Source: Eledone cirrhosa (lineage: Eukaryota). Taken from it: a stretch of DNA of 64,000 nucleotides. The position numbers and the translations under genes were made by a program. A model generated the notes under the pieces. The model saw nothing but the letters and a program-made list of their open reading frames with translations, was not told the origin of the DNA and did no database searches. The stretch lies in the NCBI GenBank assembly GCA_964016885.1, contig OZ024763.1, positions 28,582,001 to 28,646,000 on the forward strand, read 5' to 3'. Shown one piece after another: positions 24,200 through 60,491 of this stretch; the stretch's first letter is position 1; each line of letters begins with the position of its first letter.

Positions 24200-25210
24200 A
24201 CCCCTACCACTACAAGAAAGGAGTAAAGAGGCCTTTCTGGAAATAGGTGTGGGTGGTGGTGGTAGAGTGGGGGTTCCATGTGGGGTCTGCAACCGCAACC
24301 AAACCCATGACAAAGGGTGACTGCAACCACCTCAATGCTAACAATAGAACAAATGTCAATCTTGAAATTTTTGGGGGATAAATACTAAGAATTCTAACCA
24401 AGGTTCCTTTCTGGAAATATTTGGGTGTTGTGGGAAGTTGAGGGCAGATCCCGCAGCCAAACTCATGAAGACAGGTAACTATTTGGAACCATGAACCTGC
24501 AAACTGTTCAACAAATGTCAATCTAGAAATATTTGGAGGGCAAACATCAAGAATTCTAACAAAGGGGTATTTCAGAAAATAGCTGGGGTTTGGGGATCAA
24601 ACTGGGGTCAGCAGCCAAACTCATTTAAAATGGTGGCTGCAACCACAATACTGCCAGCGGTACAACACAGGTCAATTTAGAAATTTTTTGGAGAGCAAAC
24701 ATTAAGAATTCTAAGAAAAGGGCCTTTCTCGAAATATGTGGGTGGTGTAGGGTGTTGAGGGAAGAGCCGGCAGTCAAACTCATGAAGAAGGGTGACTGCT
24801 TGGAACCACGATCCTGCAAACTGTATAACAAATGTCAATCTAGAAATTTTTTTGAGGGCAAACATTAAGAATTCTAACAAAGGAGTCTTTCAAAAAATAG
24901 CTGAGGGTTGGGGTCCATGGTGGGGTCCGCAACCGAACCCATGAAGAAGGGTGATCCCAAAAACCACACTGCCAAGGGTACAACAAATGTCCATCTAGAA
25001 TTAGGAATTCAAACAAAGGAGCCTTTCTAGAACTAGGTGTTTGTGTGTGGGGTGAAGTAGGGGCATCAAGGCGGAGGCTACTGCCAAACTGACGAAGAAA
25101 AAAAAAAGGGGGGGGGGTTACTTATTCTAACTGCAACAAACACACTGGCCCAATAGTACGACAAAATTTAAAACTAGAAAATTTCGGAGGACAAACATTA
25201 AGAATCCTAC
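24200..25210. repeat. Diverged ~160-bp tandem repeat (about 6 units)
   Basis: acaaatgtcaatctagaaattt...cattaagaattctaac at 24349, 24511, 24665, 24828, 24983 and 25161. Confidence 0.85.
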
Positions 25211-36692: not shown

Positions 36693-36892
36693 NNNNNNNN
36701 NNNNNNNNNNNNNNNNNNNNNNNNNNNNNNNNNNNNNNNNNNNNNNNNNNNNNNNNNNNNNNNNNNNNNNNNNNNNNNNNNNNNNNNNNNNNNNNNNNNN
36801 NNNNNNNNNNNNNNNNNNNNNNNNNNNNNNNNNNNNNNNNNNNNNNNNNNNNNNNNNNNNNNNNNNNNNNNNNNNNNNNNNNNNNNNNNNNN
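36693..36892. other. Assembly gap (200 N)
   Basis: Run of N. Confidence 1.
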
Positions 36893-39800
36893 ATAATTCG
36901 AGTGAATGTGGAAATACACATATCGAATTAGAGTGCTCAATAGACATGTTAAAATAAAACAAAAGCTATTCATCACTCAATAGAATCGACAAAATATGAG
37001 CAATAAAATTAACCGGTGGATAGCTATGTCCAGAGCTAAATATATTAGAAAGATCGAGTATCGAAAAATCGGCGCACGAGTTAACGAAAAACGAAATCCG
37101 ATATGAGCGGCAGAGGGCTCAATAATTCAGATGAATCAGAGCTATAACTATCGTTAAAATACCGTCACATATAGAACAAGTCTACAATCAACCATACGAT
37201 TTAAAATCGATAAAGGAAGATTCGGGCCAAACAGATAAAAAATATCAATAAAACAATACGTCAATAATTTAAATGAATGTAAAATCATACCCGGACCCAC
37301 TAGAAAGGTGTTAAATCTAGCTTCATGGGTTTCTGTAAATCCTTAGACAGTACTCTATCAGCTCACATATAAATATAAAAGCCTACTAGAATAAGTGGAA
37401 AGGAGTTTACGTTGTCAACGAGTTTTATCCTGGCGGCAAAGGAGTCAACTAGCGGTGAAAAACGCACATGGCATTAGACAAGGGAGATGACCCCTATATC
37501 CGCGAAAATAATTCGAGTGAATGTGGAAATACACATATCGAATTAGAGTGCTCAATAGACATGTTAAAATAAAACAAAAGCTATTCATCACTCAATAGAA
37601 TCGACAAAATATGAGCAATAAAATTAACCGGTGGATAGCTATGTCCAGAGCTAAATATATTAGAAAGATCGAGTATCGAAAAATCGGCGCACGAGTTAAC
37701 GAAAAACGAAATCCGATATGAGCGGCAGAGGGCTCAATAATTCAGATGAATCAGAGCTATAACTATCGTTAAAATACCGTCACATATAGAACAAGTCTAC
37801 AATCAACCATACGATTTAAAATCGATAAAGGAAGATTCGGGCCAAACAGATAAAAAATATCAATAAAACAATACGTCAATAATTTAAATGAATGTAAAAT
37901 CATACCCGGACCCACTAGAAAGGTGTTAAATCTAGCTTCATGGGTTTCTGTAAATCCTTAGACAGTACTCTATCAGCTCACATATAAATATAAAAGCCTA
38001 CTAGAATAAGTGGAAAGGAGTTTACGTTGTCAACGAGTTTTATCCTGGCGGCAAAGGAGTCAACTAGCGGTGAAAAACGCACATGGCATTAGACAAGGGA
38101 GATGACCCCTATATCCGCGAAAATAATTCGAGTGAATGTGGAAATACACATATCGAATTAGAGTGCTCAATAGACATGTTAAAATAAAACAAAAGCTATT
38201 CATCACTCAATAGAATCGACAAATATGAGCAATAAAATTAACCGGTGGATAGCTATGTCCAGAGCTAAATATATTAGAAAGATCGAGTATCGAAAAATCG
38301 GCGCACGAGTTAACGAAAAACGAAATCCGATATGAGCGGCAGAGGGCTCAATAATTCAGATGAATCAGAGCTATAACTATCGTTAAAATACCGTCACATA
38401 TAGAACAAGTCTACAATCAACCATACGATTTAAAATCGATAAAGGAAGATTCGGGCCAAACAGATAAAAAATATCAATAAAACAATACGTCAATAATTTA
38501 AATGAATGTAAAATCATACCCGGACCCACTAGAAAGGTGTTAAATCTAGCTTCATGGGTTTCTGTAAATCCTAAGACAGTACTCTATCAGCTCACATATA
38601 AATATAAAAGCCTACTAGAATAAGTGGAAAGGAATTTACGTTGTCAACGAGTTTTATCCTGGCGGCAAAGGAGTCAACTAGCGGTGAAAAACGCACATGG
38701 CATTAGACAAGGGAGATGACCCCTATATCCGCGAAAATAATTCGAGTGAATATGGAAATACACATATCGAATTAGAGTGCTCAATAGACATGTTAAAATA
38801 AAACAAAAGCTATTCATCACTCAATAGAATCGACAAAATATGAGCAATAAAATTAACCGGTGGATAGCTATGTCCAGAGCTAAATATATTAGAAAGATCG
38901 AGTATCGAAAAATCGGCGCACGAGTTAACGAAAAACGAAATCCGATATGAGCGGCAGAGGGCTCAATAATTCAGATGAATCAGAGCTATAACTATCGTTA
39001 AAATACCGTCACATATAGAACAAGTCTACAATCAACCATACGATTTAAAATCGATAAAGGAAGATTCGGGCCAAACAGATAAAAAATATCAATAAAACAA
39101 TACGTCAATAATTTAAATGAATGTAAAATCATACCCGGACCCACTAGAAAGGTGTTAAATCTAGCTTCATGGGTTTCTGTAAATCCTTAGACAGTACTCT
39201 ATCAGCTCACATATAAATATAAAAGCCTACTAGAATAAGTGGAAAGGAGTTTACGTTGTCAACGAGTTTTATCCTGGCGGCAAAGGAGTCAACTAGCGGT
39301 GAAAAACGCACATGGCATTAGACAAGGGAGATGACCCCTATATCCGCGAAATAATTCGAGTGAATGTGGAAATACACATATCGAATTAGAGTGCTCAATA
39401 GACATGTTAAAATAAAACAAAAGCTATTCATCACTCAATAGAATCGACAAAATATGAGCAATAAAATTAACCGGTGGATAGCTATGTCCAGAGCTAAATA
39501 TATTAGAAAGATCGAGTATCGAAAAATCGGCGCACGAGTTAACGAAAAACGAAATTCGATATGAGCGGCAGAGGGCTCAATAATTCAGATGAATCAGAGC
39601 TATAACTATCGTTAAAATACCGTCACATATAGAACAAGTCTACAATCAACCATACGATTTAAAATCGATAAAGGAAGATTCGGGCCAAACAGATAAAAAA
39701 TATCAATAAAACAATACGTCAATAATTTAAATGAATGTAAAATCATACCCGGACCCACTAGAAAGGTGTTAAATCTAGCTTCATGGGTTTCTGTAAATCC

Positions 39801-42800
39801 TAAGACAGTACTCTATCAGCTCACATATAAATATAAAAGCCTACTAGAATAAGTGGAAAGGAATTTACGTTGTCAACGAGTTTTATCCTGGCGGCAAAGG
39901 AGTCAACTAGCGGTGAAAAACGCACATGGCATTAGACAAGGGAGATGACCCCTATATCCGCGAAAATAATTCGAGTGAATATGGAAATACACATATCGAA
40001 TTAGAGTGCTCAATAGACATGTTAAAATAAAACAAAAGCTATTCATCACTCAATAGAATCGACAAAATATGAGCAATAAAATTAACCGGTGGATAGCTAT
40101 GTCCAGAGCTAAATATATTAGAAAGATCGAGTATCGAAAAATCGGCGCACGAGTTAACGAAAAACGAAATCCGATATGAGCGGCAGAGGGCTCAATAATT
40201 CAGATGAATCAGAGCTATAACTATCGTTAAAATACCGTCACATATAGAACAAGTCTACAATCAACCATACGATTTAAAATCGATAAAGGAAGATTCGGGC
40301 CAAACAGATAAAAAATATCAATAAAACAATACGTCAATAATTTAAATGAATGTAAAATCATACCCGGACCCACTAGAAAGGTGTTAAATCTAGCTTCATG
40401 GGTTTCTGTAAATCCTAAGACAGTACTCTATCAGCTCACATATAAATATAAAAGCCTACTAGAATAAGTGGAAAGGAATTTACGTTGTCAACGAGTTTTA
40501 TCCTGGCGGCAAAGGAGTCAACTAGCGGTGAAAAACGCACATGGCATTAGACAAGGGAGATGACCCCTATATCCGCGAAAATAATTCGAGTGAATGTGGA
40601 AATACACATATCGAATTAGAGTGCTCAATAGACATGTTAAAATAAAACAAAAGCTATTCATCACTCAATAGAATCGACAAAATATGAGCAATAAAATTAA
40701 CCGGTGGATAGCTATGTCCAGAGCTAAATATATTAGAAAGATCGAGTATCGAAAAATCGGCGCACGAGTTAACGAAAAACGAAATCCGATATGAGCGGCA
40801 GAGGGCTCAATAATTCAGATGAATCAGAGCTATAACTATCGTTAAAATACCGTCACATATAGAACAAGTCTACAATCAACCATACGATTTAAAATCGATA
40901 AAGGAAGATTCGGGCCAAACAGATAAAAAATATCAATAAAACAATACGTCAATAATTTAAATGAATGTAAAATCATACCCGGACCCACTAGAAAGGTGTT
41001 AAATCTAGCTTCATGGGTTTCTGTAAATCCTTAGACAGTACTCTATCAGCTCACATATAAATATAAAAGCCTACTAGAATAAGTGGAACGGAGTTTACGT
41101 TGTCAACGAGTTTTATCCTGGCGGCAAAGGAGTCAACTAGCGGTGAAAAACGCACATGGCATTAGACAAGGGAGATGACCCCTATATCCGCGAAAACAAT
41201 TCGAGTGAATGTGGAAATACACATATCGAATTAGAGTGCTCAATAGACATGTTAAAATAAAACAAAAGCTATTCATCACTCAATAGAATCGACAAAAAAT
41301 GAGCAATAAAATTAACGGGTGGATAGCTATGTCCAGAGCTAAATATATTAGAAAGATCGAGTATCGAAAAATCGGCGCACGAGTTCACGAAAAACGAAAT
41401 TCGATATGAGCGGCAGAGGGCTCAATAATTCAGATGAATCAGAGCTATAACTATCGTTAAAATACCGTCACATATAGAACAAGTCTACAATCAACCATAC
41501 GATTTAAAATCGATAAAGGAAGATTCGGGCCAAACAGATAAAAAATATCAATAAAACAATACGTCAATAATTTAAATGAATGTAAAATCATACCCGGACC
41601 CACTAGAAAGGTGTTAAATCTAGCTTCATGGGTTTCTGTAAATCCTTAGACAGTACTCTATCAGCTCACATATAAATATAAAAGCCTACTAGAATAAGTG
41701 GAACGGAGTTTACGTTGTCAACGAGTTTTATCCTGGCGGCAAAGGAGTCAACTAGCGGTGAAAAACGCACATGGCATTAGACAAGGGAGATGACCCCTAT
41801 ATCCGCGAAAACAATTCGAGTGAATGTGGAAATACACATATCGAATTAGAGTGCTCAATAGACATGTTAAAATAAAACAAAAGCTATTCATCACTCAATA
41901 GAATCGACAAAAAATGAGCAATAAAATTAACGGGTGGATAGCTATGTCCAGAGCTAAATATATTAGAAAGATCGAGTATCGAAAAATCGGCGCACGAGTT
42001 CACGAAAAACGAAATTCGATATGAGCGGCAGAGGGCTCAATAATTCAGATGAATCAGAGCTATAACTATCGTTAAAATACCGTCACATATAGAACAAGTC
42101 TACAATCAACCATACGATTTAAAATCGATAAAGGAAGATTCGGGCCAAACAGATAAAAAATATCAATAAAACAATACGTCAATAATTTAAATGAATGTAA
42201 AATCATACCCGGACCCACTAGAAAGGTGTTAAATCTAGCTTCATGGGTTTCTGTAAATCCTTAGACAGTACTCTATCAGCTCACATATAAATATAAAAGC
42301 CTACTAGAATAAGTGGAACGGAGTTTACGTTGTCAACGAGTTTTATCCTGGCGGCAAAGGAGTCAACTAGCGGTGAAAAACGCACATGGCATTAGACAAG
42401 GGAGATGACCCCTATATCCGCGAAAACAATTCGAGTGAATGTGGAAATACACATATCGAATTAGAGTGCTCAATAGACATGTTAAAATAAAACAAAAGCT
42501 ATTCATCACTCAATAGAATCGACAAAAAATGAGCAATAAAATTAACGGGTGGATAGCTATGTCCAGAGCTAAATATATTAGAAAGATCGAGTATCGAAAA
42601 ATCGGCGCACGAGTTCACGAAAAACGAAATTCGATATGAGCGGCAGAGGGCTCAATAATTCAGATGAATCAGAGCTATAACTATCGTTAAAATACCGTCA
42701 CATATAGAACAAGTCTACAATCAACCATACGATTTAAAATCGATAAAGGAAGATTCGGGCCAAACAGATAAAAAATATCAATAAAACAATACGTCAATAA

Positions 42801-44521
42801 TTTAAATGAATGTAAAATCATACCCGGACCCACTAGAAAGGTGTTAAATCTAGCTTCATGGGTTTCTGTAAATCCTTAGACAGTACTCTATCAGCTCACA
42901 TATAAATATAAAAGCCTACTAGAATAAGTGGAACGGAGTTTACGTTGTCAACGAGTTTTATCCTGGCGGCAAAGGAGTCAACTAGCGGTGAAAAACGCAC
43001 ATGGCATTAGACAAGGGAGATGACCCCTATATCCGCGAAAACAATTCGAGTGAATGTGGAAATACACATATCGAATTAGAGTGCTCAATAGACATGTTAA
43101 AATAAAACAAAAGCTATTCATCACTCAATAGAATCGACAAAAAATGAGCAATAAAATTAACGGGTGGATAGCTATGTCCAGAGCTAAATATATTAGAAAG
43201 ATCGAGTATCGAAAAATCGGCGCACGAGTTCACGAAAAACGAAATTCGATATGAGCGGCAGAGGGCTCAATAATTCAGATGAATCAGAGCTATAACTATC
43301 GTTAAAATACCGTCACATATAGAACAAGTCTACAATCAACCATACGATTTAAAATCGATAAAGGAAGATTCGGGCCAAACAGATAAAAAATATCAATAAA
43401 ACAATACGTCAATAATTTAAATGAATGTAAAATCATACCCGGACCCACTAGAAAGGTGTTAAATCTAGCTTCATGGGTTTCTGTAAATCCTTAGACAGTA
43501 CTCTATCAGCTCACATATAAATATAAAAGCCTACTAGAATAAGTGGAACGGAGTTTACGTTGTCAACGAGTTTTATCCTGGCGGCAAAGGAGTCAACTAG
43601 CGGTGAAAAACGCACATGGCATTAGACAAGGGAGATGACCCCTATATCCGCGAAAACAATTCGAGTGAATGTGGAAATACACATATCGAATTAGAGTGCT
43701 CAATAGACATGTTAAAATAAAACAAAAGCTATTCATCACTCAATAGAATCGACAAAAAATGAGCAATAAAATTAACGGGTGGATAGCTATGTCCAGAGCT
43801 AAATATATTAGAAAGATCGAGTATCGAAAAATCGGCGCACGAGTTCACGAAAAACGAAATTCGATATGAGCGGCAGAGGGCTCAATAATTCAGATGAATC
43901 AGAGCTATAACTATCGTTAAAATACCGTCACATATAGAACAAGTCTACAATCAACCATACGATTTAAAATCGATAAAGGAAGATTCGGGCCAAACAGATA
44001 AAAAATATCAATAAAACAATACGTCAATAATTTAAATGAATGTAAAATCATACCCGGACCCACTAGAAAGGTGTTAAATCTAGCTTCATGGGTTTCTGTA
44101 AATCCTTAGACAGTACTCTATCAGCTCACATATAAATATAAAAGCCTACTAGAATAAGTGGAACGGAGTTTACGTTGTCAACGAGTTTTATCCTGGCGGC
44201 AAAGGAGTCAACTAGCGGTGAAAAACGCACATGGCATTAGACAAGGGAGATGACCCCTATATCCGCGAAAACAATTCGAGTGAATGTGGAAATACACATA
44301 TCGAATTAGAGTGCTCAATAGACATGTTAAAATAAAACAAAAGCTATTCATCACTCAATAGAATCGACAAAAAATGAGCAATAAAATTAACGGGTGGATA
44401 GCTATGTCCAGAGCTAAATATATTAGAAAGATCGAGTATCGAAAAATCGGCGCACGAGTTCACGAAAAACGAAATTCGATATGAGCGGCAGAGGGCTCAA
44501 TAATTCAGATGAATCAGAGCT

Positions 44522-44524
<3 letters not shown>
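36893..44524. repeat. 615-bp tandem array, 12 full units plus ~254 bp
   Basis: Unit starts at 36893, 37508, 38123, 38737, 39351, 39966, 40581, 41196, 41811, 42426, 43041, 43656 and 44271; only a few diagnostic differences. Confidence 0.98.
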
Positions 44525-57136: not shown

Positions 57137-57167
<31 letters not shown>

Positions 57168-57204
57168 GTATATATATACATATATGTATATATATATATG
57201 TATA

Positions 57205-60200
57205 TGAATATAGACATAGAATATTCGAAAATATTCTGTATGTTTATAATAAACATTTTGAAGACCTAATCGCTATAGAATAGAATACGTCACGTATTAC
57301 AATTAGATTCTCGACAAAAGCAAGGGAAGTAAATCTACGCGTTTCATTCTTATTAGAAATCGTCAGGACTACATATCCAGTGCTTTTGTCGAGAATGACA
57401 CAGCTAGAGACTTATAGAATACTTAGCTGTGTACAGGAACTGGTTTGAAAGAGCGGTTGCCGGTCCGGCAGAAATTAGAAATTGGAATAAATGCTCTGAA
57501 ATAGCGATATATATGTGAATATAGACATAGAATATTCGAAAATATTCTGTATGTTTATAATAAACATTTTGAAGACCTAATCGCTATAGAATAGAATACG
57601 TCACGTATTACAATTAGATTCTCGACAAAAGCAAGGGAAGTAAATCTACGCGTTTCATTCTTATTAGAAATCGTCAGGACTACATATCCAGTGCTTTTGT
57701 CGAGAATGACACAGCTAGAGACTTATAGAATACTTAGCTGTGTACAGGAACTGGTTTGAAAGAGCGGTTGCCGGTCCGGCAGAAATTAGAAATTGGAATA
57801 AATGCTCTGAAATAGCGATATATATGTGAATATAGACATAGAATATTCGAAAATATTCTGTATGTTTATAATAAACATTTTGAAGACCTAATCGCTATAG
57901 AATAGAATACGTCAGAGCATTTATTCCAATTTCTAATTTCTGCCGGACCGGCAACCGCTCTTTCAAACCAGTTCCTGTACACAGCTAAGTATTCTATAAG
58001 TCTCTAGCTGTGTCATTCTCGACAAAAGCACTGGATATGTAGTCCTGACGATTTCTAATAAGAATGAAACGCGTAGATTTACTTCCCTTGCTTTTGTCGA
58101 GAATCTAATTGTAATACGTGACGTATTCTATTCTATAGCGATTAGGTCTTCAAAATGTTTATTATAAACATACAGAATATTTTCGAATATTCTATGTCTA
58201 TATTCACATATATATCGCTATTTCAGAGCATTTATTCCAATTTCTAATTTCTGCCGGACCGGCAACCGCTCTTTCAAACCAGTTCCTGTACACAGCTAAG
58301 TATTCTATAAGTCTCTAGCTGTGTCATTCTCGACAAAAGCACTGGATATGTAGTCCTGACGATTTCTAATAAGAATGAAACGCGTAGATTTACTTCCCTT
58401 GCTTTTGTCGAGAATCTAATTGTAATACGTGACGTATTCTATTCTATAGCGATTAGGTCTTCAAAATGTTTATTATAAACATACAGAATATTTTCGAATA
58501 TTCTATGTCTATATTCACATATATATCGCTATTTCAGAGCATTTATTCCAATTTCTAATTTCTGCCGGACCGGCAACCGCTCTTTCAAACCAGTTCCTGT
58601 ACACAGCTAAGTATTCTATAAGTCTCTAGCTGTGTCATTCTCGACAAAAGCACTGGATATGTAGTCCTGACGATTTCTAATAAGAATGAAACGCGTAGAT
58701 TTACTTCCCTTGCTTTTGTCGAGAATCTAATTGTAATACGTGACGTATTCTATTCTATAGCGATTAGGTCTTCAAAATGTTTATTATAAACATACAGAAT
58801 ATTTTCGAATATTCTATGTCTATATTCACATATATATCGCTATTTCAGAGCATTTATTCCAATTTCTAATTTCTGCCGGACCGGCAACCGCTCTTTCAAA
58901 CCAGTTCCTGTACACAGCTAAGTATTCTATAAGTCTCTAGCTGTGTCATTCTCGACAAAAGCACTGGATATGTAGTCCTGACGATTTCTAATAAGAATGA
59001 AACGCGTAGATTTACTTCCCTTGCTTTTGTCGAGAATCTAATTGTAATACGTGACGTATTCTATTCTATAGCGATTAGGTCTTCAAAATGTTTATTATAA
59101 ACATACAGAATATTTTCGAATATTCTATGTCTATATTCACATATATATCGCTATTTCAGAGCATTTATTCCAATTTCTAATTTCTGCCGGACCGGCAACC
59201 GCTCTTTCAAACCAGTTCCTGTACACAGCTAAGTATTCTATAAGTCTCTAGCTGTGTCATTCTCGACAAAAGCACTGGATATGTAGTCCTGACGATTTCT
59301 AATAAGAATGAAACGCGTAGATTTACTTCCCTTGCTTTTGTCGAGAATCTAATTGTAATACGTGACGTATTCTATTCTATAGCGATTAGGTCTTCAAAAT
59401 GTTTATTATAAACATACAGAATATTTTCGAATATTCTATGTCTATATTCACATATATATCGCTATTTCAGAGCATTTATTCCAATTTCTAATTTCTGCCG
59501 GACCGGCAACCGCTCTTTCAAACCAGTTCCTGTACACAGCTAAGTATTCTATAAGTCTCTAGCTGTGTCATTCTCGACAAAAGCACTGGATATGTAGTCC
59601 TGACGATTTCTAATAAGAATGAAACGCGTAGATTTACTTCCCTTGCTTTTGTCGAGAATCTAATTGTAATACGTGACGTATTCTATTCTATAGCGATTAG
59701 GTCTTCAAAATGTTTATTATAAACATACAGAATATTTTCGAATATTCTATGTCTATATTCACATATATATCGCTATTTCAGAGCATTTATTCCAATTTCT
59801 AATTTCTGCCGGACCGGCAACCGCTCTTTCAAACCAGTTCCTGTACACAGCTAAGTATTCTATAAGTCTCTAGCTGTGTCATTCTCGACAAAAGCACTGG
59901 ATATGTAGTCCTGACGATTTCTAATAAGAATGAAACGCGTAGATTTACTTCCCTTGCTTTTGTCGAGAATCTAATTGTAATACGTGACGTATTCTATTCT
60001 ATAGCGATTAGGTCTTCAAAATGTTTATTATAAACATACAGAATATTTTCGAATATTCTATGTCTATATTCACATATATATCGCTATTTCAGAGCATTTA
60101 TTCCAATTTCTAATTTCTGCCGGACCGGCAACCGCTCTTTCAAACCAGTTCCTGTACACAGCTAAGTATTCTATAAGTCTCTAGCTGTGTCATTCTCGAC

Positions 60201-60420
60201 AAAAGCACTGGATATGTAGTCCTGACGATTTCTAATAAGAATGAAACGCGTAGATTTACTTCCCTTGCTTTTGTCGAGAATCTAATTGTAATACGTGACG
60301 TATTCTATTCTATAGCGATTAGGTCTTCAAAATGTTTATTATAAACATACAGAATATTTTCGAATATTCTATGTCTATATTCACATATATATCGCTATTT
60401 CAGAGCATTTATTCCAATTT
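57205..60420. mobile_element. Retrozyme-like array of 311-bp HHR-bearing monomers (about 2.3 copies on minus, 8 plus ~20 bp on plus)
   Basis: Period 311 (57206, 57517, 57828; 57913, 58224...60401); inversion at 57912-57914; (TA)n on both sides; one HHR per unit. Confidence 0.9.
58039..58082 (+). ncRNA. Minimal type I hammerhead (repeated at 58350, 58661, 58972, 59283, 59594, 59905, 60216; minus strand at 57329 and 57640)
   Basis: gtagtc-CTGACGA-t-ttct(aata)agaa-t-GAAA-cgcg-TA-gatttac; palindromic ACGCGT stem III; predicted cleavage after 58075. Confidence 0.85.
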
Positions 60421-60445
60421 ATATATGTATATATATACATATATG

Positions 60446-60491
<46 letters not shown>

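What the first reader, a model, noticed from the sequence alone, without database searches (positions are those of the whole stretch)
57205..57935. Inverted junction and clustered end points suggest rolling-circle reverse transcription with a template switch
Seen: the array flips orientation at a 3-nt TCA microhomology (57912-57914). The two outer ends (57205, 60420) and the start of the plus arm all map within about 45 nt of the monomer, around its internal catatatatcg tract and far from the HHR cleavage site. The plus arm is 8 units plus ~20 nt, and both flanks are (TA)n. Established: PLE insertions often have inverted 5' segments and microsatellite bias. Inference: a single insertion primed internally on a circular template at a TA target.
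Basis: partly seen in the sequence, partly recalled or inferred. Interest (0 to 1): 0.75.

Follow-up and report, generated by a model that had tools for sequence, protein, structure and literature searches.

The report
Two-armed retrozyme primed from both strands
This is one young insertion of a 311-base repeat carrying a predicted self-cutting RNA motif, laid down as two back-to-back multi-copy arms whose outer ends fall at two fixed sites in nearly all copies examined, which likely records a Penelope-type reverse transcriptase copying one small, probably circular RNA from both strands of a DNA break.

Summary
The inversion is real and is the rule for this family. All 22 two-ended arrays found by internal sequence are back-to-back, with one end at site A (about 131/140) and one at site B (about 166/168). 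Among 62 end pairs none is A/A or B/B. This matches the Penelope 'tail', shown in vitro to be two reverse-transcription start sites. Inner junctions are not clustered, so the plus-arm start at 148 is chance. Either arm can be longer, which rules out fold-back copying. Both arms share one haplotype in 74 of 77 arrays (6 by chance), and 16 carry a private variant in every unit. Best reading: twin priming on one RNA, usually a monomer circle copied for many turns; two arrays point to multimer templates. About one copy in five is single-armed (extrapolated). No RNA, cleavage, long-read or partner-element evidence was obtained. The scan already noted this architecture on other DNA of this genome.

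The parts
57162..57204 (.). Left copy of a 43-nt target-site duplication, at the end of a long interrupted (TA)n tract
   Evidence: Identical to 60421-60463; only two occurrences in the window; 4 non-TA marks
57205..57914 (-). Arm A: 2.28 units of the 311-nt monomer, RNA sense on minus, from monomer 44 (junction) to 131 (site A, beside the AUAUAUAU tract); two hammerhead motifs, predicted cuts next to 57647 and 57336
   Evidence: exact extension; site A in other copies
57912..57914 (.). TCA microhomology at the head-to-head junction of the two arms
   Evidence: microhomology of 2 nt or more in 38 of 57 clean junctions against 18% by chance
57912..60420 (+). Arm B: 8.07 identical units, from monomer 148 (junction) to 168 (site B); eight hammerhead motifs, predicted cuts after 58075, 58386, 58697, 59008, 59319, 59630, 59941, 60252
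58037..58083 (+). First plus-arm minimal type I hammerhead motif (CUGACGA core, stem II, GAAA, self-complementary ACGCGU in place of a full stem III); repeated every 311 nt
   Evidence: Read from the sequence; no Rfam hit at the gathering score; cleavage not tested
60384..60420 (+). 37-nt 'tail' (monomer 132-168): present at the arm B end, absent at the arm A end; lies between the two inferred start sites
   Evidence: the same two sites at homologous positions in a sister family 210/311 identical
60421..60463 (.). Right copy of the 43-nt target-site duplication, continuing as (TA)n

Best explanation
This is a single young insertion of a non-coding hammerhead retrozyme, likely made by a Penelope-like element's protein that primed reverse transcription from both strands of a staggered cut in (TA)n at two fixed sites of one RNA, probably a 311-nt circle copied for many turns. 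Shown by sequence: back-to-back arms, one end at site A and one at site B, a long duplication of the target, random microhomology junctions, one haplotype through both arms. Inferred steps: (1) tandem transcripts self-cleave and circularise; (2) a PLE endonuclease nicks both strands tens of nt apart, leaving 3' overhangs; (3) one 3' end starts at site B with only 1-3 nt of pairing, the other anneals to the AUAUAUAU tract at site A about 30-35 nt upstream; (4) both polymerases read the same template in the same direction, so the rear one must displace the other cDNA, as in multiply primed rolling-circle synthesis; (5) the two cDNA 3' ends join by microhomology and the gaps are filled. A minority of insertions used multimeric templates or lost one arm.
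For: Architecture: 22 of 22 two-ended arrays found by internal sequence are minus-then-plus with one A end and one B end. C1, first 198 Mb: 62 divergent end pairs = 31 AB + 31 BA, no AA or BB. Genome-wide exact counts: 1230 B ends, 1411 A ends, 12,580 internal units. End class does not follow haplotype (74 arrays; concordance 0.51 vs 0.58 null for B, 0.59 vs 0.59 for A), so ends are made anew, not inherited. One template: same haplotype in both arms in 74 of 77 arrays, 6.1 expected, 33 haplotypes; 16 arrays carry a variant fixed in both arms and seen in no other of the 77. Monomer bottleneck: minor substitutions 3.7e-4 per base within arrays against 1.2e-2 between arrays; 80 of 86 occur in a single unit. 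No template end at the cut: arm 5' ends within 10 nt of it in 4 and 0 of 89 (5.7 expected each); 952 of 954 unit joints are one of four recurrent forms. Both primers start in the same unit: L089 and L077 show the same variant order from both outer ends. PLE link: two start sites bounding a 30-40 nt tail, both strands nicked and extended in vitro (PMC11167929). GIY-YIG elements of this genome also end in (TA)n at two sites 37-38 nt apart (L173 and L189 vs L178 and L191). A sister family uses homologous sites.
Against: No RNA, circle or cleavage data exist for this family in my calls. No autonomous element sharing sequence with the monomer was found among 30 RT loci and 30 GIY-YIG loci. L077 and L089 cannot come from one monomer circle without a lock-step switch, and L118 fits non-overlapping, L1-like twin priming on a linear multimer. 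In 20 loci picked for having only one pattern-matched end, 7 are single-armed and 1 is cut by a gap. In the older sister family one locus is A/A, one B/B and several are single-armed or complex among 29. Frangieh et al. saw no difference in start site between strands in vitro and found uncleaved RNA to be the main substrate. The duplication is readable in only 5 of 82 arrays, two of them in periodic tracts. Arm lengths are only weakly correlated (rho 0.21).
Confidence: 0.62

Rival explanations
1. Same two-site twin priming, but the usual template is a linear (or large circular) multimer transcribed from a parent array, with no rolling around a monomer.
For: L077 and L089 need an ordered multimer; L118 fits adjacent non-overlapping copying. 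In vitro the uncleaved RNA was the main substrate. In Li et al. 2026, 8 of 9 tested Xenopus dimers did not cleave.
Against: Copying multimers passes on within-array variation and can only shorten arrays. Within-array variation is about 30 times below between-array divergence, 16 arrays have private variants in every unit, and 46 of 60 testable minor-variant rows are not shared in register.
Confidence: 0.2
2. Dual priming: each strand copies its own RNA molecule, both from one dominant source locus.
For: A homogeneous source array would give identical circles, so shared haplotypes need not mean one molecule; it avoids strand displacement. The L118 arms differ in part.
Against: It does not explain why every one of 62 pairs has one A end and one B end, nor the matching register in L077 and L089; 33 haplotypes are in circulation.
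Confidence: 0.1
3. One reading: one reverse transcriptase rolls, then switches onto its own cDNA (or self-primes at a hairpin, as Arkhipova et al. 2013 proposed for PLE inversions) and makes the second arm.
For: A few junctions have both arms starting at nearly the same position, some at the palindrome near 81-95 (L044, L062, L105, L109).
Against: Either arm may be longer (39 vs 50); the distance between the two junction positions is uniform (KS p=0.78); the variant order in L089 matches from the outer ends, not mirrored at the junction.
Confidence: 0.04
4. Short inverted insertions were expanded later in place by unequal crossover or slippage (the route Li et al. 2026 discuss), or the array is an assembly product.
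For: A few long arms share a variant between non-adjacent units (L066, L062, L067, L051). No shown record bridged this window's own junction.
Against: Only 6 of 86 minor substitutions occur in more than one unit; both inverted arms share the haplotype; junctions are unique per locus, ends are fixed and a target duplication is present. Contigs of a public run hold other minus-to-plus junctions of this monomer (table 5; table 7).
Confidence: 0.04

Closest known systems
Metazoan non-LTR retrozymes (Cervera and de la Pena 2020, PMC7229834: passages and Discussion read; Li, Clavereau and Pollet 2026, 10.64898/2026.07.22.740005: parts 1-3 of 5 read, supplements closed)
   Same: Non-coding tandem unit of about 300 nt, low GC, type I hammerhead in every unit, dispersed arrays; circle-templated tandem cDNA and PLE mobilisation are proposed there.
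   Different: The text I read describes neither back-to-back arms nor fixed end sites. Li et al. discuss local amplification by unequal crossover and call the mechanism open. RNA circles and cleavage were shown for their families, not for this one.
EN+ Penelope-like element insertions (Craig et al. 2021, PMC8557442, passages; Arkhipova et al. 2013, PMC3846280, passages; Frangieh et al. 2024, PMC11167929, parts 1-2 of 4)
   Same: Inverted 5'-truncated copy at one end, 30-40 nt tail at only one end, microsatellite or AT-rich targets, two adjacent internal start sites, both strands nicked and extended.
   Different: No ORF. Both arms are multi-unit and overlap in template. One strand uses site A and the other site B without exception in 62 pairs. 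Site A has up to 8 nt of pairing with the target, whereas in vitro initiation was described as non-homologous. The readable duplications are 31-58 nt against 8-10 nt in the rotifer examples.
L1 twin priming and dual priming (as described in Meyer et al. 2010, PMC2837659, passages)
   Same: Second nick primes internally on the RNA; two opposed cDNAs joined with microhomology inside a target duplication.
   Different: In L1 the two cDNAs copy separate stretches with an internal deletion and the first primer uses the poly(A) end. Here both start about 35 nt apart at fixed internal sites, cover the same sequence many times, and the inversion is the usual outcome.

Membership tests
Non-LTR retrozyme | Tandem non-coding unit of 150-450 bp with low GC | tested here: met
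   311-nt unit, about 35% GC, no ORF of 150 aa inside the array
Non-LTR retrozyme | Type I hammerhead motif in every unit | tested here: met
   Core motif in all 10 places in the window, 469 exact 41-nt matches in the genome; read by eye as a minimal type I fold; Rfam gathering search gave no hit
Non-LTR retrozyme | Self-cleavage of the RNA (monomer or dimer) | not testable with these tools
   Needs in vitro transcription
Non-LTR retrozyme | Expressed as linear and circular monomer RNA | tested here: inconclusive
   No RNA holder listed; no test was possible
Non-LTR retrozyme | Dispersed copies with target-site duplications longer than 4 bp | tested here: met
   Over 1200 ends of each kind; 43-nt duplication here; readable in 5 of 82 arrays vs 0 of 600 shuffled pairs
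PLE-mobilised insertion | Inverted 5'-truncated copy at one end | tested here: met
   22 of 22 arrays chosen by internal sequence; single-armed copies also exist
PLE-mobilised insertion | 30-40 nt tail at only one end | tested here: met
   Ends 131/140 vs 166/168 (26-37 nt apart); 0 of 62 pairs AA or BB
PLE-mobilised insertion | Shares its terminal (pLTR) sequence with an autonomous PLE | tested here: inconclusive
   No shared sequence in 30 RT loci and 30 GIY-YIG loci, a small share of 36,382 and 10,596 first-look candidates
Autonomous PLE | ORF with RT and GIY-YIG endonuclease | tested here: not met
   No ORF in the insertion
L1-type twin priming | Two arms copy non-overlapping parts, with the junction next to the second priming site | tested here: not met
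   Junctions are not enriched near site A (18 of 89, 14.6 expected); the register matches from the outer ends in L077 and L089; only L118 suggests this pattern

The most novel reading that the evidence does not exclude
A Penelope protein dimer holds one small ribozyme-made RNA circle, gives each nicked target strand its own start site (A or B), and two reverse transcriptases chase each other round the circle by strand displacement for up to tens of turns. Satellite-like arrays are thus born whole, and this two-strand, two-site priming is the general cause of the inverted-plus-tail structure of Penelope elements.
Probability: 0.5. Interest if true: 0.8.

Novelty: new variant of a known kind. 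Interest (0 to 1): 0.62.

Why it matters
How retrozymes spread and why Penelope insertions are inverted with a one-sided tail are both described as open in the papers read. More than a thousand very young copies of one small unit act as a natural experiment. They tie retrozymes to PLE machinery by insertion footprint rather than by co-occurrence, argue against self-priming and local amplification, and name the exact RNA, start sites and target for a reconstitution with a purified PLE protein. A reverse transcriptase that makes multi-turn cDNA from an RNA circle at a nicked target would also be of technical interest.

Tried and rejected
Rfam gathering scan: no hit. Pfam on two PLE fragments from L114: no hit. 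Partner search: the C-rich RT family (L133-L162) and the GIY-YIG loci (L163-L192) share no terminal sequence with the monomer; the one strong match (L164) is an inserted sister retrozyme. Expression: no RNA holder listed. Window junction in public runs: no shown record bridges it in X1, X2 or X6 (one sample, contigs only), and X21 laid nothing, so there is no verdict. Empty alleles were not tested. My early impression that junctions pile up in the tail region vanished with 89 arrays. Arms ending at the ribozyme cut: not enriched. Ends inherited from a parent copy with read-through into TA: rejected, since end class is independent of haplotype. A-to-I editing scars: 8 A>G vs 5 T>C among 30 rare fixed variants, no clear signal. 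Dropped from counts: L033 (contig end), L072 and L114 (assembly gaps), L110-L112 (longer than one fetch) and single-armed loci from the two-arm tables; 12 arrays without full coverage of both arms from the haplotype test; L089, L118, L115 and L088 from the substitution rate; L211 (overlaps L194).

Full report
Observation. The stretch 57205-60420 is built from a 311-nt unit. With position 1 set after the predicted hammerhead cut, the minus arm runs from monomer 44 to 131 (2.28 units) and the plus arm from 148 to 168 (8.07 units); they overlap in TCA at 57912-57914, and the seven cleavage-to-cleavage units are identical. Each unit holds a CUGACGA core, stem II, GAAA and a self-complementary ACGCGU, which I read as a minimal type I hammerhead; Rfam gave no hit. 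A 43-nt sequence with four non-TA marks flanks the insertion on both sides (57162-57204, 60421-60463) and occurs nowhere else in the window. This is one insertion with a target-site duplication.

Family. The genome holds 12,580 exact matches to an internal 60-mer, and 1230 and 1411 exact matches to the two kinds of end joined to TA. I fetched the arrays listed by two internal-sequence searches. Of 23, one is cut by a contig start; the other 22, the window included, are all minus-then-plus, with one outer end at 122-140 (site A) and the other at 159-173 (site B). In the first 198 Mb of C1, 100 A hits and 84 B hits form 62 divergent pairs: 31 AB, 31 BA, no AA or BB; 38 A and 22 B hits stayed unpaired. 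Of 20 unpaired loci fetched, 11 are two-armed with an end variant, one has a stub of a B arm, one is cut by a gap and 7 are single-armed, 6 of them of type A. By extrapolation about one insertion in five is single-armed. Most of the 89 two-armed arrays parsed were chosen by their ends, so their end counts (A: 131 in 52, 140 in 24; B: 166 in 65, 168 in 14) describe the classes and do not test clustering.

Junctions. Junction positions are spread round the monomer (chi-square p=0.06 and 0.29), the distance between the two arm starts is uniform (KS p=0.78), and arm A is longer in 39 arrays and arm B in 50. So the plus-arm start at 148 is chance, and a fold-back on the enzyme's own cDNA does not explain most copies. 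Of 57 clean junctions, 38 have 2 nt or more of microhomology, against 18% by chance (p=6e-16). The other 32 show extra bases; many are monomer-derived, and some are only a nearby substitution that stopped my exact extension. The duplication is readable in 5 of 82 arrays (31-58 nt; 0 of 600 shuffled pairs); most targets are pure TA.

Template. In 77 arrays with both arms fully covered, 74 have the same haplotype in both arms (6.1 expected; 33 haplotypes), and 16 carry a variant fixed in both arms and seen in no other array of the 77. Minor substitutions run at 3.7e-4 per base, 80 of 86 in one unit only, against 1.2e-2 between arrays. A new variant that fills every unit of both arms needs a one-monomer bottleneck, which a circle gives directly. 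Arm 5' ends avoid no region and do not favour the cut site, and 952 of 954 joints across the cut are one of four recurrent forms, which argues against jumping between linear monomers. End class is independent of haplotype, so ends are made at each insertion. Three arrays are mixed. In L089 both arms read two units of one haplotype and then another, counted from the outer ends; in L077 one variant sits at the same distance from both outer ends. These show that both primers start in the same unit and copy the same stretch, but they also need a multimeric template or a lock-step switch. L118 fits adjacent, non-overlapping copying. Elsewhere 46 of 60 testable minor-variant rows are not shared in register.

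Replicates. A sister family (306-nt unit, 210 of 311 identical) ends at homologous sites. Among 29 loci found by internal sequence, about 13 are clear A/B pairs, about 9 are single-armed, one is A/A, one B/B and the rest are complex or truncated (counted by eye). GIY-YIG elements in the same genome end in (TA)n at two sites 37-38 nt apart, the upstream one beside an ATAT tract (2 loci each). None shares sequence with the monomer, so the partner is not identified. Contigs of public run X1 hold minus-to-plus junctions at other monomer positions, but no shown record bridges this window's own junction.

Literature. Cervera and de la Pena 2020 (passages and Discussion) propose circle-templated tandem cDNA with PLEs as the strong candidate. 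Li et al. 2026 (parts 1-3 of 5) link retrozymes to pLTRs by phylogeny, discuss local amplification and leave the mechanism open. Craig et al. 2021 and Arkhipova et al. 2013 (passages) describe the inverted copy and the one-sided tail; the latter explains inversions by self-priming. Frangieh et al. 2024 (parts 1-2 of 4) show both strands nicked and extended and two start sites bounding the tail, with no strand difference in vitro. Meyer et al. 2010 (passages) define twin and dual priming for L1. Five searches turned up no paper describing two-armed retrozyme arrays; the library lacks most subscription papers and I saw no supplements. That PLE reverse transcriptases lack RNase H and that multiply primed rolling-circle synthesis works in vitro are recalled, not from a call.

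Earlier scan notes. I fixed my reading before looking. Several unchecked notes on other DNA of this genome reach the same view for this and other families. They are not independent support. One prompted my editing test, which gave no clear signal.

Verdict. The feature is real and general. It is a non-LTR retrozyme inserted with a Penelope footprint; two-strand priming at two fixed sites on one RNA is well supported, and a monomer circle as the usual template is likely but rests on sequence inference alone. New variant of a known kind; interest 0.62.

Noticed in passing
window 36893-44524: Tandem array of a 615-bp unit, 12.4 copies, 99% matches, starting at an assembly gap (36693-36892) and ending in (TA)n; my hammerhead pattern did not match it.
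   Followed up: no
window 14375-14483: Short back-to-back pair of fragments of another hammerhead-like repeat, beside (TA)n; similar motifs occur in L114, L126, L143 and the L068 flank.
   Followed up: no
L164 2430-2870 and L193-L222: Older sister retrozyme family, about 306-315 nt, with the same A and B end sites and a perfectly kept TCGCTATTTCAGAGCA between them, a candidate protein-binding site.
   Followed up: partly
runs X3, X4, X8: 20 runs coded as 18 organisms in 17 studies hold 59-89% of the monomer's words. The three laid from other organisms each give one clean 340-nt contig (depth 7-365), against a variant-rich cloud in X1. Trace contamination, diet, relatives or horizontal spread cannot be told apart here; raw reads X21 from the organism of X8 laid nothing on a 93-nt stretch.
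   Followed up: partly
L133-L162; L114 1067-3860: Young, C-rich PLE family (RT, zinc finger, GIY-YIG; many copies 95-100% identical; 36,382 first-look candidates). The L114 copy is followed by a hammerhead-like motif and a (TA)n end.
   Followed up: partly
L067 1599-1870: 272 nt of unrelated GC-rich sequence captured between the two arms.
   Followed up: no
L132 6340-6970: Single-armed insertion whose 5' side carries an inverted duplication of neighbouring DNA (seen by eye).
   Followed up: no
L110 and L111 (G000:C1:97461501-97476482): One insertion with a B arm of about 45 units and an A arm of 2.9 units, the longest seen.
   Followed up: no
window 24295-24913: Diverged 163-bp tandem repeat, about 3.9 copies.
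   Followed up: no
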